Made by a program: the position numbers and the translations under genes. Under the pieces are notes generated by a model. The model searched no databases and was not told the origin of the DNA. It worked only from the letters and a program-made list of their open reading frames with translations. 64,000 nt of DNA from an uncultured Flavobacteriales bacterium (GTDB taxonomy: Bacteria > Bacteroidota > Bacteroidia > Flavobacteriales > UBA7312): positions 15,148 to 79,147 of the forward strand of contig CAJWWC010000005.1 of NCBI GenBank assembly GCA_913048435.1, given 5' to 3'. This document shows, in pieces, positions 44,227-60,450 of the stretch (the first letter of the stretch is position 1; each line of letters starts with the position of its first letter).

Positions 44227-44244
44227 TTTTGCAATCAAGATCAA

Positions 44245-44694: not shown

Positions 44695-44703
44695 ATTAGT
44701 AAA

Positions 44704-46542: not shown

Positions 46543-46544
46543 GA

Positions 46545-48017
46545 TTAGATAAGGTTAGATTCTACAATATGTTTTGCAACGACTTGCCCTGAAATAATAG
46601 AGGGTGGCACGCCTGGTCCGGGTACTGTCAGTTGGCCTGTGTAGAATAGGTTATTTATTTTCTTGTTAATGATTTTAGGTTTTAAATTTGCTGTTTGAAG
46701 AAGAGTATTTGCTAAGCCGTAAGCATTGCCTTTATAAGCATTGTAATCGTTTTCAAAATCGTTAACACAATAACTTCTTTTGTACTCAATGTGCGCTTTA
46801 ATATTTTGTCCTGTAAACTTTTCAAGTCGATTTAGCATTGTGTCAAAATATTTTTCTCTAATACTTTCAATATCTTTAAGTCCTGGTGCAATAGGCATCA
46901 AAAAGAAGATATTTTCTTTACCATCAGGAGCTACACTTGGATCCGTTTTGGATGGACAACAAACGTAAAATAGCGGTTTGTTTGGCCACTTTGGATTAGT
47001 ATAAATTTCATTAGTGTGCTGCTCAATATCTTCATCAAAAAATAAATTGTGATGGATAATTTTATTGATTTTTTTATTTACGCCAATATAAAATAATAAG
47101 CTTGAAGGGGAAAAAGTTCTTCTTTGCCAGTAACTCTCATTGTAATTTCTAAATTTTTTTGGAATTAATTGGCTGTCAACGTGGTTATAATCTGCAGAAC
47201 CGACTAGCACATCCGTTTCAAATGTTCTTTTGTCTGTGACGATTGATTGGATAGTTTTATCTTTGATGTTGACAGAATGTACAGCCTCATTGGTATGAAA
47301 TTCAACACCTTGTTCTAAACAAATTTCTTTGAAAGCATCAATGACTTTTCCAAAACCACCCATGGGGTAGAAAGTACCCTTTTTTATGCCTGAGTAAGTC
47401 ATTAGACTGTATAGGGCTGGAGTTTGGCTAGGAGCAGTTCCTAAGAATAGTACTGGAAATTCTAACAACGATTTTAAATATTTATTATTAAAATACTTAG
47501 CTACATGCTTTCTGTAAGAAGTAAATACTTGTAGTTTAAAAATATTAGAAAATAACTCAGGTTTACATACCTCTGATAGAGATAGGCCAGGTTCGTAAAC
47601 TAGCTGGTTGATTCCGAAGTCATATTTAAACTCGGCTTCTTTCATAAATTCGTCTAACTTGTAAGATGAACCCTTTTCAAAATTTTCGAACATTTCACGA
47701 ACTTCAGACCATTCAGAAGACAGTTTCATTGTTTTTTGTTGTTCAAAGATAATTTGAAATCCGGGGTTTAATTGAACAAGCTCAAAGTAGTCACTTGCTC
47801 TTTTATCAAATTGAGTAAAAAATTTATCGAATACATCTGTCATCCAATACCAGCTTGGCCCCATATCAAATGTATAGCCTTCAGCTTCAAATTGTCTAGC
47901 ACGACCGCCGATATTCGAGTTTTTTTCAAAGACACTAACTTGGTGCCCTTCTTTTGCAAGAAAGGCAGCAGTGCTTAATCCTGAAAACCCACTACCTATG
48001 ACTGAAATTTTGCTCAT
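46545..48017 (-). CDS. crtI: Phytoene desaturase
   Basis: ISVIGSGFSGLSTAAFLAKEGHQVSVFEKN FAD fold, 490 aa, C-terminal FYTGQLTVPGPGVP. Confidence 0.9.
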   Translation of the reverse strand: MSKISVIGSGFSGLSTAAFLAKEGHQVSVFEKNSNIGGRARQFEAEGYTFDMGPSWYWMTDVFDKFFTQFDKRASDYFELVQLNPGFQIIFEQQKTMKLSSEWSEVREMFENFEKGSSYKLDEFMKEAEFKYDFGINQLVYEPGLSLSEVCKPELFSNIFKLQVFTSYRKHVAKYFNNKYLKSLLEFPVLFLGTAPSQTPALYSLMTYSGIKKGTFYPMGGFGKVIDAFKEICLEQGVEFHTNEAVHSVNIKDKTIQSIVTDKRTFETDVLVGSADYNHVDSQLIPKKFRNYNESYWQRRTFSPSSLLFYIGVNKKINKIIHHNLFFDEDIEQHTNEIYTNPKWPNKPLFYVCCPSKTDPSVAPDGKENIFFLMPIAPGLKDIESIREKYFDTMLNRLEKFTGQNIKAHIEYKRSYCVNDFENDYNAYKGNAYGLANTLLQTANLKPKIINKKINNLFYTGQLTVPGPGVPPSIISGQVVAKHIVESNLI

Positions 48018-48025
48018 TTTCAGTA

Positions 48026-48718
48026 CTATGATTTTACGAATTCATAAAATTCATTTCTTGTTTTATTCGATTTAATAAATTCCCCAGTTAATTTCGAGGT
48101 TTTCATAGATGTCCCGTGGTGTCCTACGCCTCTGCATTGTACGCAGTTGTGTGAGGCTTCAATCATTACTGCCACACCTTTGTTATTATCAACAATTTTA
48201 TTGATAGCATCGTGTATTCTAACGGTAAGATTTTCTTGAATAGCACCTCTTCGAGCGTAATGTTCAACAATTCTATTCAGCTTACTTAAGCCAATAATTT
48301 GTTGGTTGATTTGAGGGATATATGCTATGTGTGCTTTTCCAATAATAGTTTGGTGGTGGTGTGAACACATTGATATAATTGGAATATTACCCTCAAAAAT
48401 GATTCCATCATATTCGTAATTGGGGAAAGTTGTAATTTTTGGAAAAGCATTGTAACGCCCTGCCCATAAGTCATTTACATAAGCTTTAGCTACTCGTTTT
48501 GGAGTTTCCATAGAGTTAGGATCGTTTTTCCAATCGCAACCCAAAGCATCTAAAAACTCACCAAATTTAACGGCTGCTTTGTCAATCATTTCAAGCTTTT
48601 CCTCATCGTTTAATGCACCGTTAATATTTATGCCATCGGCAAAGCCTATATTTCTAAGTTCAGGATTTAACTCGATGATTTGAGTTGATGATCCATTAAT
48701 AATTTTGTTATTTTCCAT
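48026..48718 (-). CDS. folE: GTP cyclohydrolase I (FolE type 1)
   Basis: METPKRVAKAY, MCSHHHQTIIGKAHIAYIP and HNCVQCRGV motifs. Confidence 0.9.
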   Translation of the reverse strand: MENNKIINGSSTQIIELNPELRNIGFADGININGALNDEEKLEMIDKAAVKFGEFLDALGCDWKNDPNSMETPKRVAKAYVNDLWAGRYNAFPKITTFPNYEYDGIIFEGNIPIISMCSHHHQTIIGKAHIAYIPQINQQIIGLSKLNRIVEHYARRGAIQENLTVRIHDAINKIVDNNKGVAVMIEASHNCVQCRGVGHHGTSMKTSKLTGEFIKSNKTRNEFYEFVKS

Positions 48719-49127
48719 AGTATTCTACAAAGTTGTTTTCTGTTTCATACAATTTTACACTGTATAATTTGTTTCCTGTAGCTATAATTTCGCTTTCTAA
48801 TTCTTCATAAATTTTTATTGCGATATTTTCAGCTGTAGTTATAGTATCTCTCATAAAGTCGACTTCAAGGTTCAAGTTTTTATGATCCATTTTGTCAACA
48901 ATTCTTTTTTTGATAATACCACTTAATAATTTCAAATCTATAACATAACCTGTTTGATTGTCAACCGAACCTTCAACTGTCACAAACAATATATAATTGT
49001 GTCCATGCCAGTTTTTGTTGGAGCACTTTCCAAATGTTTGCTCATTTTTTTTGTCAGACCAGTTTGGATTGAACAAACGATGGGCAGCATTAAACCTTTC
49101 TCTACGTATAACTTTTACGGTTTTCAT
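48708..49127 (-). CDS. 6-pyruvoyl-tetrahydropterin synthase, eukaryote-like type
   Basis: FGKCSNKNWHGHNY, DHKNLNLEV, TTENIA and LYSVKLYETENNFVEYYGK closely parallel animal PTPS as I recall it (GKCNNPNGHGHNY ... VYETDNNIVVY). The ATG at 49127 is preferred over the TTG at 49160. Confidence 0.85.
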   Translation of the reverse strand: MKTVKVIRRERFNAAHRLFNPNWSDKKNEQTFGKCSNKNWHGHNYILFVTVEGSVDNQTGYVIDLKLLSGIIKKRIVDKMDHKNLNLEVDFMRDTITTAENIAIKIYEELESEIIATGNKLYSVKLYETENNFVEYYGK

Positions 49128-49162
49128 TTTGTATAAACTTTCGTTGTTAAAATTATACAAAA
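49127..49162. promoter_or_regulatory. Operator copy 1: TTTTGTATAA-N16-TTATACAAAA (perfect 10-bp arms)
   Basis: Read directly from the sequence. It lies in the 58-bp gap between the PTPS start (49127, minus) and the SDR start (49186, plus). Confidence 0.7.
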
Positions 49163-49167
49163 ATGCT

Positions 49168-49175
49168 TAGCTTTG
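49168..49175 (+). promoter_or_regulatory. Bacteroidota-type -7 box TAGCTTTG (TAnnTTTG) for the SDR/RND transcript
   Basis: It matches the TAnnTTTG consensus but lies only 10 nt upstream of the ATG at 49186. That would imply a leaderless or near-leaderless mRNA. Confidence 0.4.
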
Positions 49176-49185
49176 CAAAAAAAAG

Positions 49186-49851
49186 ATGAAAATAATGTTA
49201 ATTGGTTCTTCAAGCGATATCGCTCGTAACCTAGTAGAAAACACAAATTCAGAGTTTGAATTTATAGAGCTAACTTCAACTCCAAACTCAGTTAATCAAC
49301 ATCAAATTGATGTACAAAATGAGGAAAGCTATCCTCAAATTGATGGTGAAATCAATGGAATAGTTTATTTTCCCGGCTCAATAAATCTAAGACCTTTTTC
49401 AAGTTTGAAGATGTCAGATTTTCAGACGGATTATGAAATTAATGTATTAGGTTTGATAAAAACATTGAAATATTATCATAAACAATTAGCCTCGGATTCA
49501 TCGGTTGTTCTTATCAGTTCTGTTGCAGCTTCTGTTGGAATGCCTTATCACGCCTCTATTTCGATGTGTAAGTCGGCTATTGAAGGACTTTGTCGTTCTC
49601 TAGCTGCCGAGTGGTCGCCGAAGGTTAGAGTTAATTGCATTGCACCATCTGTAGTACAAACTAAGTTATCTTCTCGTTTGTTTAGAACAGATGCTCAAGT
49701 AGAGCAAATGAATGTCCGTCATCCTTTGCAAAAGGTAGGTCAGCCCAAAAATATATCGGACGCTATTACTTTTTTATTATCTGATAAATCTTCTTGGATT
49801 ACGGGGCAGACTTTACACGTCGATGGCGGACTTTCTAGCCTAAAAAAATAA
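49186..49851 (+). CDS. Short-chain dehydrogenase/reductase, candidate sepiapterin/pteridine reductase
   Basis: Rossmann LIGSSSDIARNL and SDR core ISSVAAS...PYHASISMCKSAIEGL...IAPSVVQT. It is divergent from folE/PTPS. Function is inferred from context only. Confidence 0.6.
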   Translation: MKIMLIGSSSDIARNLVENTNSEFEFIELTSTPNSVNQHQIDVQNEESYPQIDGEINGIVYFPGSINLRPFSSLKMSDFQTDYEINVLGLIKTLKYYHKQLASDSSVVLISSVAASVGMPYHASISMCKSAIEGLCRSLAAEWSPKVRVNCIAPSVVQTKLSSRLFRTDAQVEQMNVRHPLQKVGQPKNISDAITFLLSDKSSWITGQTLHVDGGLSSLKK

Positions 49852-49853
49852 AT

Positions 49854-51929
49854 ATGTTTTTATTCATTTGGCGGTTTAAATACCTGCTATGTATTGTCAG
49901 TCTAATATTATTTGCCTTTTGTCTTAAACAACTACTTAATGCAAATATTTATTTTGATTCAGAAAGGATTATCAATGAATTAGAAGCTGCCAATGTGGAT
50001 ATAAATGTATTAGACGATAATAATTTAGTCTTTTTTGGACTTTCCTTTAAGGATAGTTTAAGTTATCAAGATATATTAGATGTTACGACTTTTCACAAAT
50101 CCTTGAAAAAGTCAGACTATGTAAAACGTGTTTTTAGTCTTGTAAATGACCGTCAAATTATAAATACGGGCTTGTTTCCAATCTCCAAAAAAGTATTGAA
50201 CGTAAGTGATAAAGAATCCTATATAAAGTCCATAAAAAAAATATATGCTAATGGAAATAACTTCATATCGTCTGATGGAAAGAAGTTACTTTTTTTGGTG
50301 GAAAATGTTTCTGGTCTAAGTAAAGATGATAGTCGAATCTTTATTAACTCTTTGTATGCAACGGATTTAAACAAAAATATGATTGAAGTGTTTGTTAGTG
50401 GCCGCTCCCCAAGTGAACTGTATTTCGAGAAGAAAGTCATTCAAGAATTTATAATACTTACTTTAGTTAGTGGATTTTTATGTTTTTTATTTTTATTGTT
50501 AATAACAAAAAATCTTAAGTTAGTTGTGATGACTGTATTTAGTGTCATTGCAAGTATAGTGGTGTGTTTAGGACTTTCTCAAGTTTTATTTGGAGGTATA
50601 GAATTGGTAATGATAATTACACCAGCAATCTTATTTATTGTTTGTCTTTCTGACATAATGCATTTAACCAACAAGCAATCTAATGTTACCTCATCTAAGG
50701 ATACATTCTTTATTGTGAGAATGGACACGGTTGGCAAGGCTGTCGCTTTGACTTCTATAACTACTGCTATGAGCTTTTTGACATTTTTAGTTAATGATAT
50801 AGTGCCTATTCTTCGTTTTGGTCTAATTACATCTATAGGCGTTGTTTTCACGCTTTTTATTGCCGTGTTGGTTTATGCCATAAGTGTAGATAAGAACTTT
50901 AACGAATCAAATCCTGTGAAACTTGTTCAACAATTTACAGATAGGCTAATACACTTTTTGAAAAATGGACAAAAGAGTAAAACATTTCATGTTTTTATGT
51001 CCGTACTTATATTTATTGGATTATTTGGAGTAGCTAATGTTCAAATAGATAATTATCTAACTGATGAAATAAATAAAAAATCAAATATGTATAAGCAAAC
51101 AGCTTTTTTTGATAGCCATTTTGGAGGAATAAAGCCTATCACTATTTTTTTAGATAAAGAAAATGTGATTGATTTAGATATCTTGTCACAAGTTGAAAAA
51201 TCCATTAATTCACTAGGTTTTGTTGTTGATTTTTCTAATACTAATACTACTTCTGTGATGTTAGAGCAACTAGGTTTCGCCGATCAATATTTGGTCAATA
51301 AATACTTTTACATATGTCGGTCTGGTGATGAGGGGTCGCTTGCAACTTTAAAAAAATTAAAATTATTAAAAAATGAATTTACAGCAAACGGTCTAGAATT
51401 TAATTATTCTGGAGCTGGATATTTGTTTGATATTCTAGGTAATGACCTAACTAGACAGCTTATCTACGGATTAATTATTGCTATTCTTTCTATTGGCTTA
51501 GTTTTCTTTTTATTGAACAGATTTGATTTCAATTATTTCATTATTGCCATAGTTCCAAATTTGACTCCTATCCTTGTTTGTGTAGGTTTATTATATTTGA
51601 ATGGCTTTTACTTTAGTTTGTCAAATGCATTCATTTTTACTGTAGTTTTCGGACTAATAATTGATGACTCTATTCACCTTATAAGTGCCTATGCAAGTGC
51701 TAGAAAAAGAAAAATATCAAAGTCAGATTCTTTAGATTTAGTCGTTACAAAAACAGGTGACGCTATTATCAAAACCACTTTAATTGTTATAATCTGTCTT
51801 TTTCCTCTTTCCTTTTCTGAGTTCAAGTCTGTTTCTCAGTTATCGGTAATTACGATATTGAGTGCTTTTATTGCTATATTCTTCGATTTGGTTTATTTAC
51901 CCTTAATAATCAAAAGGCTAACTAAGTAG
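49854..51929 (+). CDS. RND-superfamily (MMPL/HpnN-like, SSD-type) exporter
   Basis: 691 aa in two homologous halves. Each half has one TM helix, a large loop and five clustered TM helices. It starts 3 nt after the SDR stop. Confidence 0.7.
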   Translation: MFLFIWRFKYLLCIVSLILFAFCLKQLLNANIYFDSERIINELEAANVDINVLDDNNLVFFGLSFKDSLSYQDILDVTTFHKSLKKSDYVKRVFSLVNDRQIINTGLFPISKKVLNVSDKESYIKSIKKIYANGNNFISSDGKKLLFLVENVSGLSKDDSRIFINSLYATDLNKNMIEVFVSGRSPSELYFEKKVIQEFIILTLVSGFLCFLFLLLITKNLKLVVMTVFSVIASIVVCLGLSQVLFGGIELVMIITPAILFIVCLSDIMHLTNKQSNVTSSKDTFFIVRMDTVGKAVALTSITTAMSFLTFLVNDIVPILRFGLITSIGVVFTLFIAVLVYAISVDKNFNESNPVKLVQQFTDRLIHFLKNGQKSKTFHVFMSVLIFIGLFGVANVQIDNYLTDEINKKSNMYKQTAFFDSHFGGIKPITIFLDKENVIDLDILSQVEKSINSLGFVVDFSNTNTTSVMLEQLGFADQYLVNKYFYICRSGDEGSLATLKKLKLLKNEFTANGLEFNYSGAGYLFDILGNDLTRQLIYGLIIAILSIGLVFFLLNRFDFNYFIIAIVPNLTPILVCVGLLYLNGFYFSLSNAFIFTVVFGLIIDDSIHLISAYASARKRKISKSDSLDLVVTKTGDAIIKTTLIVIICLFPLSFSEFKSVSQLSVITILSAFIAIFFDLVYLPLIIKRLTK

Positions 51930-52289
51930 CCACAGGTCGTTTAGTTCGGCTTTGAAAAATGACCATAAGTTGTCGGGTAGATTATATTTTTCAAAAAAAT
52001 CGAAGTGGTCATTCTCGTGATTGAGTGAAATCTCACTGTCTTTAGTTTTTGACTGATAAAACCAATATACATCATTATCAAAAGTGCAATATTTTACGAA
52101 TTGAGGGTTATCTGGCATGATACTAGTTTCTTCTTTGGTTTCTCTTATCACAGCTAAACTTGGTTCTTCGTTGGGCTTTATTTTGCCAACAACTGGTGTC
52201 CAAATTCCGGGATAAAAAGGATTTGTCAATTTTCTTTTTAATAAAAGTACTTTATTATCTTTGAATATAAAATGGACACAATATTTCAT
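51918..52289 (-). CDS. Nudix hydrolase
   Basis: Nudix box GKIKPNEEPSLAVIRETKEETSI. The ATG at 52289 forms an ATGA overlap with the fpg-like stop. Confidence 0.8.
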   Translation of the reverse strand: MKYCVHFIFKDNKVLLLKRKLTNPFYPGIWTPVVGKIKPNEEPSLAVIRETKEETSIMPDNPQFVKYCTFDNDVYWFYQSKTKDSEISLNHENDHFDFFEKYNLPDNLWSFFKAELNDLWLLS

Positions 52290-53080
52290 TTTTGAACTTT
52301 TGGGCAATACCAACTCTTTCTCTGGTCAGAGGTTGTGCTACTTATAACTTCATTGCCATATTCATCTTTTTTCTTGCCATACACTTTAAGTTCAAATTTA
52401 GAAACGTGAAAAGGGTTTTTGAAATCTTTGAGTTCGGCACCACCACTTACATAGCTGCTTTGCATGATGTCTTTAGTAACTAGTAGTAGTTCTTTTACTT
52501 TATTGAAAGACAGTTTGCCCCATTGTTTTTCAGGGTGTAATTTGGCGGCATACAAGGCTTCAGATTTGATGTAGTTACCAACACCGGGAAAGAAACGTTG
52601 GTCCATAAGTGTTGAACAAACAGACTTACTTTGACTGACTTTTTGTTTGAGGTATTTCATGTGCTCGTCGAAGTCATAATCTTTATTAAGAAAGTCATAA
52701 GTGTTGAAATGCTTTTGTTGAATTTGATCTTTATTGAGAATTCTCATTTTCCCAAACTTTCTGACATCTCTAAAGAACAATTCTCTATCTTCAGCACTAA
52801 CTTTAAAATGACAATGTTTAATGTTATCCTCGCTCCAACCACCAGTCATGCCAAGGTGGAAATTAAAATATAGTCCATTGGAAAGGGGTAAAAAAATATT
52901 CTTTCCTATCGTAAATGTGGTTTGAAAATCTTTTGGGTGGTATTGCTTTATACATTCAAATACGTCTGCATACTTTTTTTCATAATACTCACTAAGTAAT
53001 TCAAATGTGATATTTTTTGCTCCTTCAAAAAACGAATTATAATAGGAAGATGCTATTTTAACCTCAGGTCCTTCAGGCAT
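52286..53080 (-). CDS. Fpg/Nei-family DNA glycosylase with a degenerate (zinc-less) C-terminal finger
   Basis: MPEGPEV catalytic N-terminus and H2TH region PGVGNYIKSEALY. The C-terminus VYGKKKDEYGNEVISSTTSDQRKSWYCPKVQK retains only one of the four expected Cys. Confidence 0.8.
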   Translation of the reverse strand: MPEGPEVKIASSYYNSFFEGAKNITFELLSEYYEKKYADVFECIKQYHPKDFQTTFTIGKNIFLPLSNGLYFNFHLGMTGGWSEDNIKHCHFKVSAEDRELFFRDVRKFGKMRILNKDQIQQKHFNTYDFLNKDYDFDEHMKYLKQKVSQSKSVCSTLMDQRFFPGVGNYIKSEALYAAKLHPEKQWGKLSFNKVKELLLVTKDIMQSSYVSGGAELKDFKNPFHVSKFELKVYGKKKDEYGNEVISSTTSDQRKSWYCPKVQK

Positions 53081-53634
53081 TATTTTAATATAACAATAAC
53101 TTCGTTTCTTCTATTCAAAACTTTGTAAGGCGAGTCGTAAACCAACAATTCAAATTCATCAGTATATGCGATATCGTATTTTTCAAGTGTATTAATTAAT
53201 TCTTGTTTTTTACGCTTTACCTTAGTGCTGTTGGAGTATCCTGAAAAACGAATAGCAGCTACTTTTCTTGAATCCATTTTTATTATATCTATCTCTTTGG
53301 AGTTAGGTGTGGGCAAACTCTCCATTTCATAGCGTTTTGGCATAAGGAACATCATTTCTTTATTTTTTGATGATAAACGCATATTAACAGGTGAGGTCAT
53401 GCCAATTTGTTCGTTTCTATCATTTCCACCAAATATATAATTGGCAAGTACTCTAAATTGAGAGTTATTGCCTGATTGTGAAAAGTGACTGGCATATATA
53501 AGTGCTGGATACTGTCTAATTTCAACAGAATCTATTGTTCTAATGATATTATAGTTTTCAGTTTTATTCACGCTAAAAGAAAATAGGGCATATACAGTAA
53601 GTATAGCTGTAGTTAAAAAAAGTAATTTTTTCAT
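53080..53634 (-). CDS. SOUL/heme-binding-protein family protein, exported
   Basis: Signal peptide, IEIRQYPALIYA and PV.M motifs, 184 aa. Confidence 0.65.
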   Translation of the reverse strand: MKKLLFLTTAILTVYALFSFSVNKTENYNIIRTIDSVEIRQYPALIYASHFSQSGNNSQFRVLANYIFGGNDRNEQIGMTSPVNMRLSSKNKEMMFLMPKRYEMESLPTPNSKEIDIIKMDSRKVAAIRFSGYSNSTKVKRKKQELINTLEKYDIAYTDEFELLVYDSPYKVLNRRNEVIVILK

Positions 53635-54161
53635 TATTTCAGTTTTTCAATAATTTGCTTATCTAATGGATTTACGCCACTTTTGAAATAAGCAATTAAC
53701 TCTCCGTCATCGTTGATCAAAAATTTATTGAAGTTCCATGACACCTCAAAATTATCTAATCTGTTTTGCTCTTTGTTTGTCAGCCAAGTAAAAATAGGGT
53801 GCTGATTTTTTCCTTTGACATTTACTTTTTCTGTAATAGGAAATGTAATATCAAACTTACTTTCACAAAATGTTTTTATCTCTTTCTCGCTTCCTGGCTC
53901 TTGTGACCCAAACTGATTGCAAGGGACGCCTAGCACTACCAGTTGATCAGCGTATTTCTGACTTAGCTTTTGTAAATCAGCATATTGTGAGGTATAGCCA
54001 CAATATGAGGCGACGTTTACTATTAGAATGTATTTGCCTTTGAAATCTGACATCTTAATTTCTTTGTTTTCTATAGATGGTATAGATAATTCGTAGAAAG
54101 ATTGAGAATAAGTTGAGTTCATAATAAATAATGAAAATATAATTAGAATAAAGGATCTCAT
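53634..54161 (-). CDS. Glutathione peroxidase family protein (Cys type), exported
   Basis: NVASYCGYT, LGVPCNQFGSQEP and WNFNKFLI motifs, plus a signal peptide. Confidence 0.85.
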   Translation of the reverse strand: MRSFILIIFSLFIMNSTYSQSFYELSIPSIENKEIKMSDFKGKYILIVNVASYCGYTSQYADLQKLSQKYADQLVVLGVPCNQFGSQEPGSEKEIKTFCESKFDITFPITEKVNVKGKNQHPIFTWLTNKEQNRLDNFEVSWNFNKFLINDDGELIAYFKSGVNPLDKQIIEKLK

Positions 54162-54173
54162 ATTATTGTTGTG

Positions 54174-54209
54174 TTAAAAAAAGTGAGAGAGTTTTCACTC
54201 TCTCACTTA
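54174..54209 (-). terminator. Rho-independent terminator after the blue-copper/fasciclin gene
   Basis: AGTGAGAGAG-tttt-CACTCTCTCACT. On the minus strand the hairpin is followed by a T-run (the A-run at 54175-54182 on plus). Confidence 0.75.
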
Positions 54210-54236
54210 AAAATCAAATTTACCTTGATTTACAAA

Positions 54237-55571
54237 TTACTTGCGTAGATTGTATCTTTTTATACTTGTTCCGTTAGAATAGATGTCAATTAAAATCTTT
54301 TCTTTTGAATCTCTATCGACCAATTCACCTAGTAGGTTTATGGTGTGTAAATATTCTACATCTTTTTCATTTAAAAACGTATTTGTTGTTGTAGGCTCAT
54401 CATCTGCTATTAACACAGCATTGATAACATGTACTACTCCATTGTTAGCTACAATATCTGGCTGAATGACTGTTGACATATCAATCATTACGGTACCAGC
54501 ATCTATACTCACAAGTAATACATCATCGTTCAATGTTGGTACTTCCATACCATTAGATAAGTCTGTTGATAGCACATTACCGGAGTGAACATGATGTAAA
54601 AGTATTTCTGTCAAAAGATCAATATCAGCAAGTAAGTCGTCTAATGCTCCTGCGGGTAATGCACCAAAAGCATCGTCTGTTGGTGCAAATACTGTAAATG
54701 GACCATCGCCTGAAAGTGTTTCGCCTAATTCTGCGGCATCAATTGCTGTTTCCAAAGTAGTGTGAATTGGAGATGCCTTTATAATACTATAAACAGTAGT
54801 ATCCTCTTGCCCAAAATCGGGTAATAATACTTTATCAATAACGTGTACTACTCCATTACTAGCTATTAAATCAGCTTGTGTAACTGTTGCAAGATTAATC
54901 ATTACAGTCATACCATCTATCGTTACAGTGAGTTCAGTATTATTAAGAGTTGGTACTCCCATGCCGTTTTCTAAGTCTGTAGATAACACATTTCCAGAGT
55001 GAACATGATTAAGTAAAACGTCGGATAGCTGATCGGCATTAGCTAAAATTAAATCTAGGGCTCCCTCAGCAAGGCCATCAAATGCATCATCAGATGGCGC
55101 AAAAACCGTGAATGGTCCATCACCATTTAAGGTTTCTGCCAAATTTGCAGCAATTACAGCTGTTTCTAGAGTTTGATGGCTGTCAGAATTTACAATTATA
55201 TCAACAACTGTTCCATTATTAACAACATTTATTGTACCGACCATTCCATTTTGGGCATGTAATCCAACTGAACAATCATAATTGTATGTTCCTTCGATAG
55301 TGAACACGTGCGTGTGAATTATTGCTCCAATGGAGCCTGTTGTTGGTGATTGAAAACTTTCTGGGTTGTTAAAACTTTGACCCGATAGTGAGCTAATGTT
55401 AGCATTAACGTCATGAATACCGCCATCATTAATCCATACGACAGTGTCACCAAGGTGGATTGTCAAAGATTCAGGTGAATAATAAAAACTACCTGCATTT
55501 ATTTGGTGCGTTGTTGAAAATGAATTCAGTGATATCATCGTCACAAGCAAAATTAGTATGTGTTTTTTCAT
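54237..55571 (-). CDS. Secreted type-1 (blue) copper domain + two FAS1 (fasciclin) domains + T9SS C-terminal domain
   Basis: Cupredoxin ligand pattern GGIHDV ... YDCSVGLHAQNGM (C-x4-H-x4-M). Two near-identical FAS1 repeats (GDGPFTVFAP.DDAF...NGVVHVI). CTD-like tail ...ILIDIYSNGTSIKRYNLRK. Confidence 0.75.
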   Translation of the reverse strand: MKKHILILLVTMISLNSFSTTHQINAGSFYYSPESLTIHLGDTVVWINDGGIHDVNANISSLSGQSFNNPESFQSPTTGSIGAIIHTHVFTIEGTYNYDCSVGLHAQNGMVGTINVVNNGTVVDIIVNSDSHQTLETAVIAANLAETLNGDGPFTVFAPSDDAFDGLAEGALDLILANADQLSDVLLNHVHSGNVLSTDLENGMGVPTLNNTELTVTIDGMTVMINLATVTQADLIASNGVVHVIDKVLLPDFGQEDTTVYSIIKASPIHTTLETAIDAAELGETLSGDGPFTVFAPTDDAFGALPAGALDDLLADIDLLTEILLHHVHSGNVLSTDLSNGMEVPTLNDDVLLVSIDAGTVMIDMSTVIQPDIVANNGVVHVINAVLIADDEPTTTNTFLNEKDVEYLHTINLLGELVDRDSKEKILIDIYSNGTSIKRYNLRK

Positions 55572-55596
55572 TTTAATAACAGTTTTAAATTATGCA

Positions 55597-55604
55597 CAAA
55601 TATA
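55597..55604 (-). promoter_or_regulatory. -7 box TATATTTG (minus strand) for the blue-copper/fasciclin gene
   Basis: The plus strand reads CAAATATA, about 26 nt upstream of the ATG at 55571. Confidence 0.45.
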
Positions 55605-55616
55605 CATATTTTTTAA

Positions 55617-55652
55617 TTTTGTATAGATTTTTTTGAATATTGTTATACAAAA
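55617..55652. promoter_or_regulatory. Operator copy 2: TTTTGTATAG-N16-TTATACAAAA, flanked by extra TATACA (55601-55606) and TGTATA (55653-55658) half-sites
   Basis: Read directly from the sequence. It lies between two divergent -7 boxes. Confidence 0.7.
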
Positions 55653-55656
55653 TGTA

Positions 55657-55664
55657 TATATTTG
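55657..55664 (+). promoter_or_regulatory. -7 box TATATTTG for the small-ORF/carH-like transcript
   Basis: It matches TAnnTTTG and abuts the right operator arm. Confidence 0.45.
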
Positions 55665-55711
55665 CACAATAAATAAGACTATAATGTCAAACAAACTTTA
55701 ATATTATTAAA

Positions 55712-55876
55712 ATGCCAAGAAAGAAAAAGCAGAAAATATCTATTGAAGAAATTAAGAAAAGAACTCCAAAAATCATTTTTTATACCGATAAAATGAAAAT
55801 TAATTTAAAATCGTTGAGTAGTCTTGATTTTTGGTTTGATAAGTATCCTAATGGAAAATACATAGTTAATGACTAA
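55712..55876 (+). CDS. Small basic protein (54 aa), unknown function, translationally coupled to the regulator
   Basis: Manual translation gives MPRKKKQKISIEEIKKRTPKIIFYTDKMKINLKSLSSLDFWFDKYPNGKYIVND. It is below the ORF-track size cut-off. Its stop overlaps the regulator ATG by 8 nt (AATGACTAA). A 55-codon open frame is notable in AT-rich DNA. Confidence 0.45.
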   Translation: MPRKKKQKISIEEIKKRTPKIIFYTDKMKINLKSLSSLDFWFDKYPNGKYIVND

Positions 55877-56750
55877 GTACAGTATAGATCAGTTTTCACA
55901 AATCACTGGGATAACTAAGTTTGTGTTACGAACTTGGGAAAATCGTTATGGCTTTCTCAAGGCTGAACGTACTGATACCAAAATACGTTATTATACTGAT
56001 GAATTACTTGTTCGGGCATTAAATTCTAACTATTTACTTGAAAATGGATACAAAATATCTGCAATTTCTAAGCTTGATGACCTACAAATCAAAATTAAGG
56101 TTGATGAAATCAAAAATAGTGATGATGACAACTCTGTAGAATCATACTACATAGCTAGACTAATTAGCTCTGCACTTGATTTTGATTCTAATCTTTTTAA
56201 CACAATCTATGACAATGGTGTAAAAGAACTAGGTGTGCTTGAGTTTTATAAATCAGTTTTATTAGTAACCTTTTCAAAGATTGGTATATTTTGGTTAACT
56301 AACAGGATAGCTCCTTCGCAAGAACATTTTTTATCCGAATTAGTTAAACAAAAAATAGGAGCAGCAGCTGATTTTTATTCATCTAATAACTCAACGAAAG
56401 GGGCTTGGCTTTTATTTTTGCCTGAGAATGAATTTCATGAAATTGGATTACTATTTGCTAAATTTTTGTTAATTAAAAATGGTTTTGAAGTTATTTATTT
56501 GGGATCAAACGTACCTTATGGTTCATTATTAGAATTGGCTGAAAAAAAACAAATAGATAATGTTTTATTCTTTTCTGTTTCTAATACATCAAAAAGTAAC
56601 TTAGACTTTACTATCAATTATCTAAACAAGTCGTTTCCGACTGCCAAACATTTTTTGGTTGCAAATAGCCTTGATATCAATTTTCTTACCAAAGAACATG
56701 ATATTACAATTCTTGAAAATCTTGACAGTTTTATTGATATTATTTCATAG
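55869..56750 (+). CDS. CarH/LitR-type MerR-family regulator with an adenosylcobalamin-binding photoreceptor domain
   Basis: MerR HTH (YSIDQFSQITGITKFVLRTWENRYG). W-x9-EH motif (FWLTNRIAPSQEH). B12 motif ExHxxG (ENEFHEIG) followed by VIYLGSNVP. Confidence 0.8.
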   Translation: MTKYSIDQFSQITGITKFVLRTWENRYGFLKAERTDTKIRYYTDELLVRALNSNYLLENGYKISAISKLDDLQIKIKVDEIKNSDDDNSVESYYIARLISSALDFDSNLFNTIYDNGVKELGVLEFYKSVLLVTFSKIGIFWLTNRIAPSQEHFLSELVKQKIGAAADFYSSNNSTKGAWLLFLPENEFHEIGLLFAKFLLIKNGFEVIYLGSNVPYGSLLELAEKKQIDNVLFFSVSNTSKSNLDFTINYLNKSFPTAKHFLVANSLDINFLTKEHDITILENLDSFIDIIS

Positions 56751-57150
56751 ATAATTTTCTACTTTCAATAAATTTTCGTAAAAACTTTTTGTGGCCTTTT
56801 TTATCTACAATCTTTAATTTTATAGTGTGATTATTTTGTTGAACTTCTAATATTCCATCATTATTTAGAAAGCTGACTTGGTTGTAACGAGACATTATCA
56901 CATACTCTTCATTTTTATGTCTGAAATATATTGCTACACCTTTGATACGTAACTCAAATGTACAGTACACTAAATCTGTATATTCTTCAAAATCTATCTC
57001 AAAACTTTTTGGACTTATTTTTAACAGAAGGTATTTAGGAGAACCATAAAAACCATTTTTGATTTTTTGTAACAAGCTGTAAGGATTACCACAAATGGTG
57101 AATAAATTTTCTCTGATTTTTTTTTGATTTTGACTTGTTTTAAATAGCAT
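56740..57150 (-). CDS. Hypothetical protein (136 aa from the internal ATG)
   Basis: MLFKTSQNQKKIREN... There are no recognisable motifs. It converges on the regulator gene with an 11-nt 3-prime overlap. A TAATTTTG -7 box (plus-strand CAAAATTA, 57169-57176) lies inside the spacer of operator copy 3. Confidence 0.45.
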   Translation of the reverse strand: MLFKTSQNQKKIRENLFTICGNPYSLLQKIKNGFYGSPKYLLLKISPKSFEIDFEEYTDLVYCTFELRIKGVAIYFRHKNEEYVIMSRYNQVSFLNNDGILEVQQNNHTIKLKIVDKKGHKKFLRKFIESRKLSMK

Positions 57151-57158
57151 AATTGTAT

Positions 57159-57194
57159 ATTTGTATAACAAAATTAGCAAAAAGTTATACAATA
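57159..57194. promoter_or_regulatory. Operator copy 3: ATTTGTATAA-N16-TTATACAATA, with extra half-sites TTGTATA (57153-57159) and TTATACAA (57219-57226)
   Basis: Read directly from the sequence. It lies in the divergent region between the hypothetical gene (minus) and the SRPBCC gene (plus). Confidence 0.65.
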
Positions 57195-57232: not shown

Positions 57233-57694
57233 ATGGCGCATTATCAACTTCTAAAAGAACAGTTCCTAAAAACTGATATTGACATTATTTGGGATTTTGC
57301 ATCATCTCCAGCAAATCTTAAGGAAATCACTCCCGATTATATGTTATTTGATATTACATCAAAAGATTTGCCTGAAAAAATGTACCCAGGAATGATTATA
57401 ACTTATAAAGTTTCCCCTTTGTTTAATATTAAGATGAATTGGGTAACCGAAATAACACAGGTTAAAGACAAACATTTTTTTATTGATGAGCAGCGTTTAG
57501 GTCCTTACAAAATGTGGCATCATCAGCATTTTTTCGAAGAAAAAGATGGTGGTGTTTTAATGACTGATATTGTCACTTATATTCCTCCATTTGGTATACT
57601 TGGTGACATTGCTAATGTTGTGCTTATCAAAAAACAGTTGAAAGGTATTTTTGACTATAGATTTAAAGTAATGGATGAAAAATTTAATCAATAG
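57233..57694 (+). CDS. SRPBCC-superfamily ligand-binding protein
   Basis: 153 aa. The pattern ...PGMIITYKVSP...LGPYKMWHHQHFFEE... is typical of the cyclase/dehydrase-like SRPBCC proteins found next to photolyase genes. The assignment is from memory. Confidence 0.55.
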   Translation: MAHYQLLKEQFLKTDIDIIWDFASSPANLKEITPDYMLFDITSKDLPEKMYPGMIITYKVSPLFNIKMNWVTEITQVKDKHFFIDEQRLGPYKMWHHQHFFEEKDGGVLMTDIVTYIPPFGILGDIANVVLIKKQLKGIFDYRFKVMDEKFNQ

Positions 57695-57696
57695 TC

Positions 57697-58176
57697 ATGA
57701 AGAGACCTTGGAATATTATTAGCCCTCCTGTTTATAGTTTAGTAACTTATGACGAACAGGGAAAAGTCAATATGAATATTTGCACTTATGTTTCGGCAGT
57801 TAGTATGAAGCCTAAAATGTATTCTGTTGCCATAGATTATACTTCCAAAACCTATAAGAATTTAGAAAAATCATCGAAAGTTGTTCTTCAGTTGTTAAGT
57901 GCTTCTAATCTCAAGGTTATAAGGAAATTAGGTAAAATTAGTGGTAAGCTATTTGACAAAGATCGTTATCTAAACTCATACAATTTACTTCATTCTTGGA
58001 AAGATTACAATGTGTTAAAAGAAACTTGTGCATTAATTGAGTTAGAAAAAAAATCGGTAGTCAATAATCATGGTGACCATGCTATTTTTTTCTTTGACGT
58101 TACTGCCTTTAAGACCATTTCTGAAAAAAATGTCCTTTCATTTCAAGACTTAGTAGATAACAGAATAATACTATAA
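57697..58176 (+). CDS. Flavin reductase-like (FMN-binding split barrel) protein
   Basis: 159 aa. VYSLVTYDEQGKVNMNICTYVSAVSMKP resembles the PF01613-type N-terminus. Confidence 0.6.
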   Translation: MKRPWNIISPPVYSLVTYDEQGKVNMNICTYVSAVSMKPKMYSVAIDYTSKTYKNLEKSSKVVLQLLSASNLKVIRKLGKISGKLFDKDRYLNSYNLLHSWKDYNVLKETCALIELEKKSVVNNHGDHAIFFFDVTAFKTISEKNVLSFQDLVDNRIIL

Positions 58177-58178
58177 TT

Positions 58179-58811: not shown

Positions 58812-58955
58812 ATGATGAGAAAGCCTCTGCCAAATAAAAACTGTTTGGTTTGTCTAAAACCTTTTTCTTGGCGTAAGAAGTGGGAACGGGTTTGGGATGA
58901 TGTAAAATATTGCAGTGAACGTTGCAGAAGAAATAAAAATAACAAGAATGAATAG
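58812..58955 (+). CDS. DUF2256 small Cys4 protein
   Basis: Manual translation gives [47 protein letters not shown] (47 aa, C-x2-C-x19-C-x3-C). The WRKKW...VKYCS..C signature matches my memory of DUF2256. It is below the ORF-track cut-off. Confidence 0.7.
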
Positions 58956-60435: not shown

Positions 60436-60450
60436 AAATAATTACAATAT

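What the first reader, a model, noticed from the sequence alone, without database searches (positions are those of the whole stretch)
49127..57194. One 36-bp inverted-repeat operator occurs three times with identical spacing, defining a candidate B12-dependent light regulon
Three intergenic sites share the same architecture:
- 49127-49162: TTTTGTATAA-N16-TTATACAAAA
- 55617-55652: TTTTGTATAG-N16-TTATACAAAA
- 57159-57194: ATTTGTATAA-N16-TTATACAATA

The 8-bp core TTGTATA(A/G) / TTATACAA and the 16-bp spacer are conserved in all three. Copies 2 and 3 also carry extra TGTATA/TATACA half-sites. Copies 1 and 3 sit between divergently transcribed genes. At copy 2 the plus side is the small ORF plus the regulator gene, and the minus side is the blue-copper gene.

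The only regulator in the neighbourhood is a CarH-type MerR/B12 photoreceptor. The flanking genes (carotenoid, pterin, photolyase-like, flavin reductases) fit photoprotection. At copy 3 a TAATTTTG -7 box lies inside the spacer. At copy 2 both -7 boxes abut the arms. That placement suits a repressor that occludes the promoter.

CarH operators described in Thermus and Myxococcus are, as I recall, tandem direct repeats. A widely spaced inverted repeat would therefore be a different operator design.
Basis: partly seen in the sequence, partly recalled or inferred. Interest (0 to 1): 0.85.

Follow-up and report, generated by a model that had tools for sequence, protein, structure and literature searches.

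The report
Inverted-repeat operator of flavobacterial CarH
Three identical promoter sites in this marine flavobacterial DNA are very probably the docking sites of a vitamin-B12-dependent light-sensing repressor that switches on pigment and DNA-repair genes in light, and their mirror-image layout, kept in 66 of 78 sampled Bacteroidota loci that retain DNA upstream of the regulator, differs from the tandem layout known for this repressor family.

Summary
TTGTATA-N18-TATACAA occurs exactly three times in the window (49129, 55619, 57161), where about 0.08 matches are expected by chance. All three copies are intergenic and overlap Bacteroidota promoter elements.

In 79 related loci the same motif lies upstream of every regulator ortholog with at least 47% identity, apart from one locus without upstream DNA and one with a one-mismatch site. 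That gives 41 exact sites in 19 loci, and no other spacer length from 11 to 25 bp gives a hit. Arms are invariant and spacers vary freely.

Distant Bacteroidota orthologs (31-41% identity) carry TGTTTA-N18-TAAACA directly before carH and again before crtI. The regulator's recognition helix differs between the two clades in step with the hexamer.

The regulator is CarH-like: a MerR DNA-binding domain, Wx9EH, and an invariant ENEFHEIG with the axial histidine. The hexamer fits the family's TnnACA unit. The arrangement is two inverted units 24 bp apart, with none in the 11-bp tandem register described for Thermus, Bacillus and myxobacterial CarH.

I found no prior description. This is a new variant of a known kind. 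Binding, B12 dependence and the light response remain inferred.

The parts
49127..49162 (.). Operator copy 1: TTTTGTATAA-N16-TTATACAAAA (core TGTATA 49130-49135, TATACA 49154-49159)
   Evidence: It is syntenic and exact in L001-L004, L006-L008 and L015, with a variable spacer. The left arm is 2 nt from the PTPS ATG (49127, minus strand). The right arm is 8 nt upstream of the -7 box TAGCTTTG (49168-49175) of the SDR promoter.
55617..55652 (.). Operator copy 2: TTTTGTATAG-N16-TTATACAAAA, the autoregulatory site upstream of sORF-carH
   Evidence: It is conserved upstream of the regulator in all near-clade loci that have upstream DNA. The plus-strand -7 box TATATTTG is at 55657-55664. The minus-strand -7 box is at 55597-55604 (CAAATATA on the + strand). 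A TTTG inside the spacer fits the -33 element of the plus promoter.
57159..57194 (.). Operator copy 3: ATTTGTATAA-N16-TTATACAATA
   Evidence: It is conserved in L001-L008, L015 and L193. The plus-strand -7 box TATATTTG at 57156-57163 fuses with the left arm. The minus-strand -7 box TAATTTTG lies in the spacer (57169-57176).
55869..56750 (+). carH-type regulator, 293 aa: MerR wHTH plus a B12-binding four-helix bundle and Rossmann module
   Evidence: Pfam gives MerR_1 at 3e-14. B12-binding_2 and B12-binding hits fall just below their gathering scores. It aligns to Thermus CarH 5c8d over residues 4-232 at E 2e-12, with Wx9EH and ExH aligned. The best NCBIfam hit is TransRegCarH, far below its equivalog cut-off. 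Wx9EH and ENEFHEIG are invariant in 68 orthologs.
55712..55876 (+). 54-aa conserved orphan ORF, overlapping the carH start by 8 nt (probably co-transcribed and translationally coupled)
   Evidence: It has 31 homologs, all unnamed or 'hypothetical', from marine Flavobacteriales. It is present in 13 near-clade loci only. In L013 and L014 it is unlinked from carH but still preceded by an operator.
43849..49127 (-). Putative operator-controlled operon: PTPS, GTP cyclohydrolase I, phytoene desaturase (crtI), phytoene synthase (crtB), a 163-aa unknown, a NUDIX (idi-like) protein, a fatty-acid-hydroxylase-family protein (crtZ-like), and a 131-aa unknown
   Evidence: Pfam results. The genes are tightly packed and co-oriented. 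The operon extent is inferred, not shown. In L012-L014, L017-L020 and the distant clade, crtI is the gene directly next to the operator.
49186..51929 (+). SDR oxidoreductase plus an MMPL/RND-type transporter, to the right of copy 1
   Evidence: Pfam and NCBIfam results. The SDR gene follows the operator in 10 near-clade loci, including L010.
54237..55571 (-). Cupredoxin plus two-fasciclin-domain protein, to the left of copy 2
   Evidence: Pfam Copper-bind plus Fasciclin. Homologs, or a bare cupredoxin, lie next to an operator in L001-L004, L006-L010, L013, L015 and L016.
54181..54208 (-). Intrinsic-terminator-like hairpin (12-bp stem, T-run) after the fasciclin/cupredoxin gene
   Evidence: It suggests that GPx-SOUL-Fpg-NUDIX (51918-54161) form a separate transcript.
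56740..57150 (-). 136-aa unknown protein, to the left of copy 3. Its true start is the conserved ATG at 57150, not 57201.
   Evidence: No family was found.
57233..61698 (+). Putative operator-controlled operon: SRPBCC ligand-binding protein, two flavin-reductase-like proteins, a photolyase-related protein (PF04244 DPRP plus FAD_binding_7), and a metallophosphoesterase
   Evidence: Pfam. The SRPBCC name comes from source annotations. The SRPBCC gene follows the operator in all syntenic loci. The operon extent is inferred from spacing.

Best explanation
The three sites are operators of the CarH/LitR-family repressor encoded at 55869-56750.

Proposed mechanism:
- In the dark the adenosylcobalamin-loaded protein oligomerises.
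- Two of its MerR-type winged-helix domains sit on the two inverted TnnACA units (TGTATA and TATACA), whose centres are 24 bp apart.
- Each operator overlaps the -33/-7 elements or the start sites of two divergent Bacteroidota promoters, so RNA polymerase is excluded.
- Light photolyses the cofactor, the oligomer falls apart, and transcription is released.

Genes released:
- carotenoid genes (crtI, crtB, crtZ-like, idi-like)
- pterin genes (folE, PTPS)
- a photolyase-related flavoprotein with flavin-reductase-like, SRPBCC and phosphoesterase partners
- SDR-MMPL
- a secreted cupredoxin-fasciclin protein
- the regulator itself, together with a 54-aa partner ORF

Shown here: the sites, their conservation, their fixed spacing, their promoter overlap, their linkage to carH and crtI across the phylum, protein-DNA covariation, and the CarH signature residues.

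Inferred: binding, repression, B12 and light dependence, operon extents, and geometry. My geometric guess is that the two arms take the place of the DR1 and DR3 units, 22 bp apart, which one head-to-tail dimer contacts in Thermus CarH. Here one unit is flipped, so the contact is two-fold symmetric, and nothing replaces the central DR2 contact.
For: Statistics:
- 3 exact sites against 0.08 expected.
- In 20 near-clade loci plus the window there are 44 exact TGTATA-N18-TATACA sites, and none with any other spacer from 11 to 25 bp.
- In the 350 nt upstream of distant carH genes, TGTnnA-Nk-TnnACA gives 54 hits at k=18 and 0-7 at every other k.

Phylogenetic footprint: arms invariant, spacers unconstrained, -7 boxes conserved.

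Location:
- 38 of 44 and 59 of 63 sites lie outside ATG-started ORFs, against about 15% of random 30-mers.
- -7 boxes cluster at fixed offsets: -5, 36-39, 5 and 16 in the near clade; 9, -5 and 5 in the far clade.

Linkage to the regulator:
- A site precedes carH in every near-clade locus that has upstream DNA, and in 47 of 59 far-clade loci.
- A second site lies 5-9 nt before crtI in 10 far-clade loci.

Covariation: the TGTATA clade has recognition helix T-K-F-V-L-R-T-W-E-N, and the TGTTTA clade has K-A-H-T-I-R-I-W-E-Q.

Family signature:
- Alignment to TtCarH at E 2e-12.
- Wx9EH in 68 of 68 orthologs and ENEFHEIG invariant.
- The hexamer fits the CarH unit nnnnTnnACAn (PMC9304148) and resembles the class II LitR site T(G/A)TACA-N12-TGTA(C/T)A (PMC9758184).

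Physiology in relatives:
- Dokdonia MED134 up-regulates crtBI, the adjacent MerR regulator and a photolyase-related protein in light (bioRxiv 10.1101/2023.12.25.573297).
- The Pseudomonas LitR regulon contains folE, phrB and cryB.
Against: - No binding, expression or cofactor data exist for this protein or any close ortholog.
- The Pfam B12-domain hits are below their gathering scores. The distal SxL...GG part of the canonical B12 motif is replaced by LVH or SVS and by GN or AN, so cofactor binding could be altered.
- The NCBIfam CarH equivalog score is 76 bits against a cut-off of 400.
- Only about 64 kb of this genome and about 20 kb per relative were examined, so genome-wide specificity is untested. 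Across all metagenomes the 14-base pattern is mostly a chance match.
- I did not verify that the Dokdonia regulator is an ortholog.
- The oligomeric state and the DR1/DR3 analogy are conjecture.
Confidence: 0.78

Rival explanations
1. The sites are operators of this regulator, but the protein acts like Myxococcus CarA. It would be a B12-independent, light-insensitive repressor relieved by another factor, for example an antirepressor such as the co-transcribed 54-aa ORF, or it would use a different corrinoid chemistry.
For: - The distal SxL...GG portion of the B12 motif is not conserved, and the Pfam B12 hits are sub-threshold.
- A conserved small ORF is translationally coupled to carH, and in L013 and L014 it carries its own operator.
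- CarA/CarS is a precedent within the family (PMC9304148, PMC8156234).
Against: - Wx9EH, the motif whose absence accounts for CarA's B12 independence and whose presence defines CarH homologs (PMC8156234), is invariant in 68 of 68 orthologs. So is the axial-His segment ENEFHEIG.
- The small ORF is basic at its N-terminus, unlike acidic CarS. It is also missing from most operator-bearing loci.
Confidence: 0.1
2. A different transcription factor, encoded elsewhere in the genome, recognises the inverted repeat, and its proximity to carH is incidental co-regulation.
For: - No binding data exist.
- An inverted repeat with a 24-bp centre distance is atypical for the CarH operators described so far.
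Against: - The site is found upstream of carH across three orders of Bacteroidota while the surrounding genes change.
- The hexamer matches the family's TnnACA unit.
- The hexamer's central dinucleotide switches together with the CarH recognition helix.
- No other DNA-binding protein was found in 43.8-61.7 kb.
Confidence: 0.06
3. The repeat acts at the RNA level as a hairpin, such as a terminator, attenuator or processing site, rather than as a protein-binding DNA site.
For: Each 36-mer can fold into an 8-10 bp A/U-rich hairpin of -3.7 to -7.5 kcal/mol, better than shuffles. This is unavoidable for any inverted repeat.
Against: - The stems are weak, the loops are 14-18 nt, and no T-run follows.
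- The arms are invariant, with no compensatory changes, although a hairpin would tolerate them.
- The sites lie at or upstream of the predicted start sites of divergent genes, so most of each site is not in either transcript.
- No Rfam family matches.
Confidence: 0.02
4. The repeat is a chance or compositional by-product of A+T-rich divergent promoters, because TTTG of the -7 box resembles the arm TTTGTATA.
For: - In 18 of 88 oriented views a -7 box TAnnTTTG ends in the first two bases of an arm.
- The extra hexamers at copies 2 and 3 are indeed explained this way.
- Across all metagenomes the pattern is mostly chance.
Against: - 0 of 100 shuffles reach 3 matches.
- The spacing is exclusive to N18.
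- The GTATA/TATAC bases beyond the -7 box are invariant.
- 70 of 88 oriented arms have no fused -7 box.
- Sites also occur upstream of single, non-divergent genes in the far clade.
Confidence: 0.02

Closest known systems
CarH / class I LitR (AdoCbl-dependent photoreceptor-repressors of Thermus thermophilus, Bacillus megaterium, Myxococcus and other myxobacteria)
   Same: - Domain order is the same: a MerR-type wHTH, then a four-helix bundle, then a Rossmann B12 module.
- The Wx9EH cap and the axial His are present.
- The regulator is linked to, and sits upstream of, carotenoid genes, and is probably autoregulated.
- The operator overlaps core promoter elements, as expected for a repressor.
- The recognition unit fits TnnACA.
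   Different: - Known operators have three to five 11-bp units in tandem direct orientation, sometimes degenerate and plastic.
- Here there are exactly two units, inverted, with centres 24 bp apart. The arms are near-invariant, the intervening 18 bp are unconstrained, and no unit lies at an 11-bp direct register.
- The distal SxL...GG of the B12 motif is not kept.
- The promoters are of the Bacteroidota -33/-7 type.
- The regulon in the window's clade is broader: pterin genes, a photolyase-related protein, SRPBCC, and a cupredoxin-fasciclin protein.
Class II LitR of Pseudomonas (PplR1 / PmlR2) and its operator T(G/A)TACA-N12-TGTA(C/T)A
   Same: - The operator has two hexamers of the TGTAYA type at a fixed distance, overlapping the promoter.
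- The regulator is a repressor.
- The light regulon contains folE, a photolyase and a cryptochrome-like protein (PMC9758184).
   Different: - The spacer is 12 bp there and 18 bp here.
- TGTACA is self-complementary, so orientation is undefined there. Here the hexamer is asymmetric and clearly inverted.
- Class II LitR lacks the Rossmann B12 domain and depends on a LOV partner. The protein here keeps the full B12 module and the axial His.
Canonical MerR-family operators (MerR, CueR, SoxR and similar)
   Same: - The DNA-binding fold is the MerR-type winged helix.
- The site is dyad-symmetric and lies within the promoter (PMC8156234).
   Different: - From general knowledge: canonical MerR dimers are held by a coiled coil. 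They bind a compact palindrome inside an over-long -35/-10 spacer and activate by distorting DNA.
- Here the half-sites are 24 bp apart, the promoters are of the -33/-7 type, and the family precedent is repression through oligomerisation of the B12 domain.

Membership tests
CarH / class I LitR photoreceptor-repressors | N-terminal MerR-type winged-helix DNA-binding domain | tested here: met
   Pfam MerR_1 at E 3.2e-14, 53 bits against a cut-off of 21.6, over residues 4-69. Residues 4-70 align to the TtCarH DNA-binding domain.
CarH / class I LitR photoreceptor-repressors | C-terminal B12-binding module (four-helix bundle plus Rossmann fold) | tested here: met
   - phmmer to TtCarH full-length structures 3whp and 5c8d at E about 2e-12, over residues 4-232.
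- phmmer to CarH B12-domain-only chains 8c35 and 5c8a at E about 5e-6, over residues 114-232.
- Pfam PF02607 (22.5 bits vs 23) and PF02310 (21.6 bits vs 32.1) are just below their gathering scores.
CarH / class I LitR photoreceptor-repressors | Wx9EH motif capping the adenosyl group (it distinguishes CarH from B12-independent CarA) | tested here: met
   W142-x9-E152-H153 aligns with the TtCarH motif. It is invariant in 68 of 68 Bacteroidota orthologs. The defining role of the motif is stated in PMC8156234.
CarH / class I LitR photoreceptor-repressors | B12-binding motif E/DxHxxG with the lower axial His | tested here: met
   E188-F-H190-E-I-G193 is present. ENEFHEI is invariant in 68 of 68 orthologs, and the final G is present in 62 of 68.
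CarH / class I LitR photoreceptor-repressors | Distal part of the canonical B12 motif (SxL/V, then GG 26-28 residues later) | tested here: not met
   No ortholog matches the full pattern (0 of 68). The aligned positions read SVS or LVH, and AN or GN. The consequence for cofactor binding is unknown.
CarH / class I LitR photoreceptor-repressors | AdoCbl binding, dark-state oligomerisation and light-induced dissociation | not testable with these tools
   This needs purified protein, with spectroscopy and SEC-MALS in dark and light.
CarH / class I LitR photoreceptor-repressors | Operator built from tandem 11-bp direct repeats nnnnTnnACAn | tested here: not met
   The TnnACA unit is present (TATACA or TAAACA). 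Only two units occur, and they are inverted. Direct-register offsets of ±11, ±22 and ±33 carry TnnACA in 0-3.3% of 214 oriented sites, within the per-offset background range (mean 0.6%, maximum 3.7%). The reference design is from PMC9304148.
CarH / class I LitR photoreceptor-repressors | Genomic linkage to, and operator upstream of, carotenoid biosynthesis genes | tested here: met
   - crtI is divergent from carH, with the operator between them, in L012-L014 and L017-L020.
- An operator lies 5-9 nt before crtI in 10 far-clade loci.
- crtI and crtB are present in 55 and 52 of 59 far-clade loci.
- In the window, crtI and crtB lie in the operon headed by copy 1.
Class II LitR (Pseudomonas) | Retains only the four-helix bundle and lacks a functional B12 Rossmann domain; acts with a short LOV partner | tested here: not met
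   The Rossmann segment with the axial His is present and conserved. No LOV or PAS gene lies in 43.8-61.7 kb of the window.
Class II LitR (Pseudomonas) | Operator T(G/A)TACA-N12-TGTA(C/T)A | tested here: not met
   The N12 spacer gives 0 exact hits in the window and in the near-clade loci. Only N18 is populated.
Canonical MerR activators | Compact dyad inside a 19-20 bp -35/-10 spacer; dimerisation through a C-terminal coiled coil and an effector pocket | tested here: not met
   The half-site centres are 24 bp apart. The promoters are of the -33/-7 type, and the arms flank or overlap those elements. The C-terminal region is a B12 module, not a coiled coil.

The most novel reading that the evidence does not exclude
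Bacteroidota CarH proteins recognise DNA in a way not yet seen in the family. The operator is strictly two-fold symmetric, TGTnnA-N18-TnnACA, with two half-sites and no central contact. This implies a different placement of the DNA-binding domains on the B12-dependent oligomer, possibly a single head-to-tail dimer, or a tetramer that can bridge two operators as suggested by the 42-44 bp tandem pairs in L014 and L071. In abundant marine Flavobacteriales this one switch would make a whole photoprotection regulon (carotenoids, pterins, a photolyase-related protein, SRPBCC, a cupredoxin-fasciclin protein) dependent on an external vitamin as well as on light.
Probability: 0.55. Interest if true: 0.65.

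Novelty: new variant of a known kind. Interest (0 to 1): 0.6.

Why it matters
CarH is the model B12-based photoreceptor and a widely used optogenetic and biomaterials module. How its oligomer reads DNA is known from one crystal structure and a few footprints, and all of these show tandem direct repeats with notable plasticity.

A phylum-wide operator that is rigid and symmetric, with exact spacing and near-invariant arms, would be a second and simpler DNA-recognition mode. A two-half-site operator with a spacer that carries no conserved contact could be easier to engineer.

Ecologically, it gives a concrete, testable regulon for light sensing in uncultured marine Flavobacteriales. It also links photoprotection to vitamin B12 supply. 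From general knowledge, many marine Bacteroidota cannot make B12, and I did not check this genome.

The motif also allows regulon prediction across Bacteroidota genomes and offers a candidate explanation for light-induced crtBI and photolyase expression in strains such as Dokdonia MED134 (whether its regulator carries this motif was not checked).

Tried and rejected
1. Degenerate copies in the window. At 2-3 mismatches the counts equal chance, so there are none.

2. An apparent excess at spacer N20 with 2 mismatches. It is the true sites read 2 nt out of register.

3. Extra half-sites as part of a four-site operator. Rejected, because relatives keep the -7 box TATATTTG but vary the base that would complete TGTATA (CGTATA, GTATAT, CATATA). 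The 57220 TATACAA is not conserved.

4. Metagenome-wide scan with the 14-base pattern to enlarge the regulon. The 120 loci were mostly chance matches in unrelated organisms, many of them inside ORFs. Only L189, L193, probably L156, and L102/L103 belong to the system. It was not informative for the regulon.

5. A stop-to-stop open-frame test of coding status. It was too crude, because open frames run upstream of true starts. I replaced it with ATG-started ORFs.

6. The sigma-70 promoter scan. It gave 97 hits against 98 expected and is not applicable to Bacteroidota. Only its terminator list was used.

7. Rfam search of the whole window. Nothing was found.

8. Pfam and NCBIfam searches at lax thresholds for the 54-aa, 136-aa, 163-aa and 131-aa unknowns. 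Nothing credible was found.

9. Literature.
- Nine full-text searches found no description of a Bacteroidota CarH operator.
- The P. putida and B. multivorans LitR papers (PMC7515241, PMC6256028) are not held.
- Subscription-journal literature was not searchable, so prior description cannot be excluded.

Full report
**1. The observation**

The three 36-bp sites are present exactly as written, at 49127-49162, 55617-55652 and 57159-57194.
- The pattern TTGTATA-N18-TATACAA at up to one mismatch finds these three sites and nothing else in 64 kb, and all three are exact. Dinucleotide-preserving shuffles give a mean of 0.08, and none of 100 reaches three.
- Allowing three mismatches brings the count to chance level (16 vs 14.9), so the window holds no further degenerate copies.
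- The 7-mer alone is not enriched (23 vs 22.5). The signal is the pairing at a fixed distance.

**2. Surroundings in the window**

Pfam and NCBIfam assignments and one homology search give the following map.
- Left of copy 1, minus strand: 6-pyruvoyl-tetrahydropterin synthase (PTPS), GTP cyclohydrolase I, phytoene desaturase, phytoene synthase, a 163-aa unknown, a NUDIX protein (idi-like), a fatty-acid-hydroxylase-family protein (crtZ-like) and a 131-aa unknown.
- Right of copy 1: an SDR oxidoreductase and an MMPL-type transporter.
- Left of copy 2: a cupredoxin plus fasciclin protein.
- Right of copy 2: a 54-aa ORF that overlaps by 8 nt the start of a 293-aa MerR/B12-binding regulator.
- Left of copy 3: a 136-aa unknown.
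- Right of copy 3: an SRPBCC ligand-binding protein, two flavin-reductase-like proteins, a photolyase-related protein (PF04244 plus FAD_binding_7) and a metallophosphoesterase.

Two start codons need correcting relative to the mechanical ORF list.
- PTPS starts at the ATG at 49127, 2 nt from the TGTATA core.
- The 136-aa gene starts at the conserved ATG at 57150.

SprA and T9SS sorting domains elsewhere in the window place the organism in Bacteroidota. The closest relatives are uncultured marine Flavobacteriales MAGs.

**3. The regulator**

- It aligns with Thermus thermophilus CarH (PDB 5c8d, 3whp) over residues 4-232 at E about 2e-12.
- The Trp and Glu-His of the Wx9EH cap and the axial His of ExH are aligned.
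- Across 68 Bacteroidota orthologs Wx9EH is invariant, and so is the segment ENEFHEIG.
- According to PMC8156234 these signatures define CarH homologs and separate them from B12-independent CarA.

Two caveats apply.
- The Pfam B12 hits are just under their gathering scores.
- The distal SxL...GG part of the classical B12 motif is replaced by SVS or LVH and by AN or GN.

**4. Comparative test**

A scan of one genome per species returned 79 loci encoding relatives of the regulator.

Near clade:
- In the 20 loci with 47-88% identity, TGTATA-N18-TATACA occurs 41 times in 19 loci.
- No spacer length from 11 to 25 bp other than 18 gives a single hit. The few N26 hits are copy 3 read from an upstream hexamer.
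- L011 has no upstream DNA. L010 has a one-mismatch site in front of the regulator.
- The sites are nearly always perfect: 44 exact and 7 with one mismatch, where other spacers give 0-7.
- The arms are invariant and the 18-bp spacer varies freely.

Distant clade (31-41% identity; Chitinophagales, Sphingobacteriales, Salinimicrobium and others):
- The same architecture appears with a different hexamer, TGTTTA-N18-TAAACA.
- In the 350 nt upstream of carH, TGTnnA-Nk-TnnACA gives 54 hits at k=18 and 0-7 at any other k.
- Forty-seven sites lie directly before carH, often with the ATG 0-2 nt after the arm. Ten lie 5-9 nt before crtI. Only about six lie elsewhere.

**5. Who binds?**

Three lines of evidence point to the CarH ortholog.
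- It is the only gene that accompanies the operator in all clades. The 54-aa ORF, the one other conserved unknown at the locus, is absent from L012, L016-L020 and all distant loci.
- The hexamer fits the family's recognition unit. CarH operators are built from nnnnTnnACAn (PMC9304148), and class II LitR binds T(G/A)TACA-N12-TGTA(C/T)A (PMC9758184).
- The two central bases of the hexamer change together with the recognition helix. The TGTATA clade has T-K-F-V-L-R-T-W-E-N and the TGTTTA clade has K-A-H-T-I-R-I-W-E-Q, with several other fixed switches in the DNA-binding domain.

This is correlation, not proof, but it is what a protein-DNA pair is expected to show.

**6. Position relative to promoters**

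Sites avoid coding DNA. Six of 44 and four of 63 sites lie in ATG-started ORFs, against 85-86% of random 30-mers. Four of the six near-clade cases are the copy 3 family with its mis-extended ORF; the other two are in L013 and L014.

The Bacteroidota -7 box TAnnTTTG clusters at fixed offsets.
- It can be fused to an arm, as in TAnnTT-TGTATA.
- It can lie 6-9 bp beyond the far arm, which puts that arm between -33 and -7.
- It can lie inside the spacer, which is the dominant arrangement in the distant clade.

In the window:
- Copy 1: TAGCTTTG at 49168-49175 serves the SDR gene.
- Copy 2: TATATTTG at 55657-55664 serves sORF-carH, with a TTTG in the spacer at the -33 distance. A minus-strand box at 55597-55604 serves the cupredoxin-fasciclin gene.
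- Copy 3: TATATTTG at 57156-57163 serves the SRPBCC operon. TAATTTTG on the minus strand inside the spacer serves the 136-aa gene.

Every operator therefore overlaps the core of two facing promoters, which suits a repressor that excludes RNA polymerase.

**7. How it differs from known CarH operators**

Characterised CarH proteins bind three to five tandem 11-bp direct repeats. In Thermus, one head-to-tail dimer contacts DR1 and DR3, which are 22 bp apart, and the other dimer contacts DR2 (PMC9304148).

Around 107 Bacteroidota operators, TnnACA at direct-register offsets of ±11, ±22 and ±33 occurs in 0-3.3% of oriented views, within the per-offset background range (mean 0.6%, maximum 3.7%). The operator is therefore two inverted units with centres 24 bp apart, and nothing else.

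My mechanistic proposal is inference. Two DNA-binding domains related by the two-fold axis of the B12-domain oligomer contact the arms symmetrically, at about the DR1-DR3 distance, and no domain contacts the centre. Tandem operator pairs 42 and 44 bp apart in L014 and L071 hint that a tetramer might use both dimers where two operators are adjacent.

**8.

- The extra TGTATA/TATACA hexamers at copies 2 and 3 are not conserved as half-sites. Relatives keep TATATTTG there and vary the flanking base, and the hexamer at 57220 is not conserved at all.
- A 12-bp-stem terminator with a T-run at 54181-54208 follows the cupredoxin-fasciclin gene. GPx-SOUL-Fpg-NUDIX may therefore not belong to the regulon, although they fit its theme and stay syntenic in L193.
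- At copy 2 the -7 boxes are 4 and 12 nt from the arms, not abutting them.

**9. Rivals**

- An RNA hairpin is unlikely. The stems are weak (-3.7 to -7.5 kcal/mol), the loops are long, no T-run follows, no compensatory changes are seen, and no Rfam family matches.
- Chance or composition is excluded by the shuffles and by the exclusive spacing.
- A different binder is disfavoured by the evidence in section 5.
- The most serious rival is that the protein binds these sites but is not a B12/light switch in the CarH sense, given the degenerate distal B12 motif. The invariant Wx9EH and axial His argue against this.

**10. Physiological plausibility**

- In Dokdonia sp. MED134, a cultured marine flavobacterium, light up-regulates crtB, crtI, the associated MerR-family regulator, a photolyase-related protein and other photolyases (bioRxiv 10.1101/2023.12.25.573297). 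I did not verify orthology or the motif in that genome.
- The Pseudomonas LitR regulon likewise holds folE, phrB and cryB.

**11. Novelty and limits**

Nine full-text searches found no description of a CarH or LitR operator in Bacteroidota, or of this motif. Subscription-only papers were not searchable.

I file this as a new variant of a known kind: a CarH-family switch with a distinct operator architecture that is conserved across the phylum.

Limits:
- There are no experimental data for this clade.
- Only about 64 kb of this genome and about 20 kb per relative were examined.
- Across all metagenomes the 14-base pattern is mostly a chance match. The motif is therefore diagnostic only within the right genomes and next to the right genes.

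Noticed in passing
window 55712-55876 (+): A 54-aa ORF (MPRKKKQK...) overlaps the carH start by 8 nt. It is a conserved orphan with 31 homologs, all unnamed, all from marine Flavobacteriales. In L013 and L014 a 61-aa homolog is unlinked from carH but still has its own operator or operators in front of it. Its function is unknown; it may be a partner or modulator of the switch.
   Followed up: partly
window 54237-55571 (-); L016 near 1805; L010 near 1826; L013 near 14972: A secreted cupredoxin (blue-copper) protein, usually fused to fasciclin domains, is one of the most consistent operator neighbours. In L016 it is a bare cupredoxin. Why a periplasmic or surface copper protein would be light-regulated is unexplained.
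   Followed up: partly
window 54181-54208 (-): A strong intrinsic-terminator-like hairpin (12-bp stem, 4-nt loop, T-run) lies between the cupredoxin-fasciclin gene and GPx. It splits what looks like one photo-oxidative-stress cluster (GPx, SOUL, Fpg/Nei, NUDIX) from the operator.
   Followed up: no
L021-L079 (e.g. L028 4304, L043 384, L058 9971): In many distant loci the carH ATG follows the right arm by 0-2 nt (TAAACAATG), and the -7 box lies in the spacer. This predicts leaderless or nearly leaderless carH and crtI mRNAs.
   Followed up: no
L014 14976 and 15018; L071 9691 and 9735: Two full operators lie in tandem, 42 and 44 bp apart start to start, which is about four helical turns. A tetramer could use both of its dimers on such a pair.
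   Followed up: no
L054 10888; L062 3604; L079 6170: These are hybrid operators, with one TGTATA arm and one TAAACA arm.
   Followed up: no
L144 6727: A metagenome hit has an exact TTGTATA-N18-TATACAA 40 nt upstream of a proteorhodopsin-like gene (RYVDWTLTVPL motif). Its spacer contains a sigma-70-like TTGACA, so it may come from a non-Bacteroidota organism or be a chance match. This is a single case.
   Followed up: no
L016 1805 (right flank); L102 4561 and L103 2062 (left flank): A YceI-like (polyisoprenoid-binding type) lipoprotein gene lies directly next to an operator in a Cryomorphaceae MAG and in two metagenome contigs. It is a possible further regulon member. The assignment is by eye from the sequence, not by HMM.
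   Followed up: no
window 57233-57694 (+): The 153-aa protein heading the copy 3 operon has no hit in the Pfam scan run here, yet it belongs to a large and very conserved SRPBCC family. It has 5,417 homologs, is about 70% identical to Echinicola proteins, and has homologs in 33 of the distant carH loci.
   Followed up: partly
window 55869-56750, residues about 232-270: The distal B12-motif positions (SxL and GG) are consistently replaced in Bacteroidota CarH orthologs by LVH or SVS and by GN or AN, while the proximal motif ENEFHEIG is invariant. This may reflect a different way of holding the nucleotide tail of the cofactor.
   Followed up: partly
window 7005-14156 (+), 1584-3140 (-), 3336-4046 (+), 15759-33765 (+): The window also carries a 2,383-aa SprA (type IX secretion) gene, two proteins with T9SS C-terminal sorting domains, and a long plus-strand polysaccharide-biosynthesis and efflux cluster. 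None has the motif.
   Followed up: no
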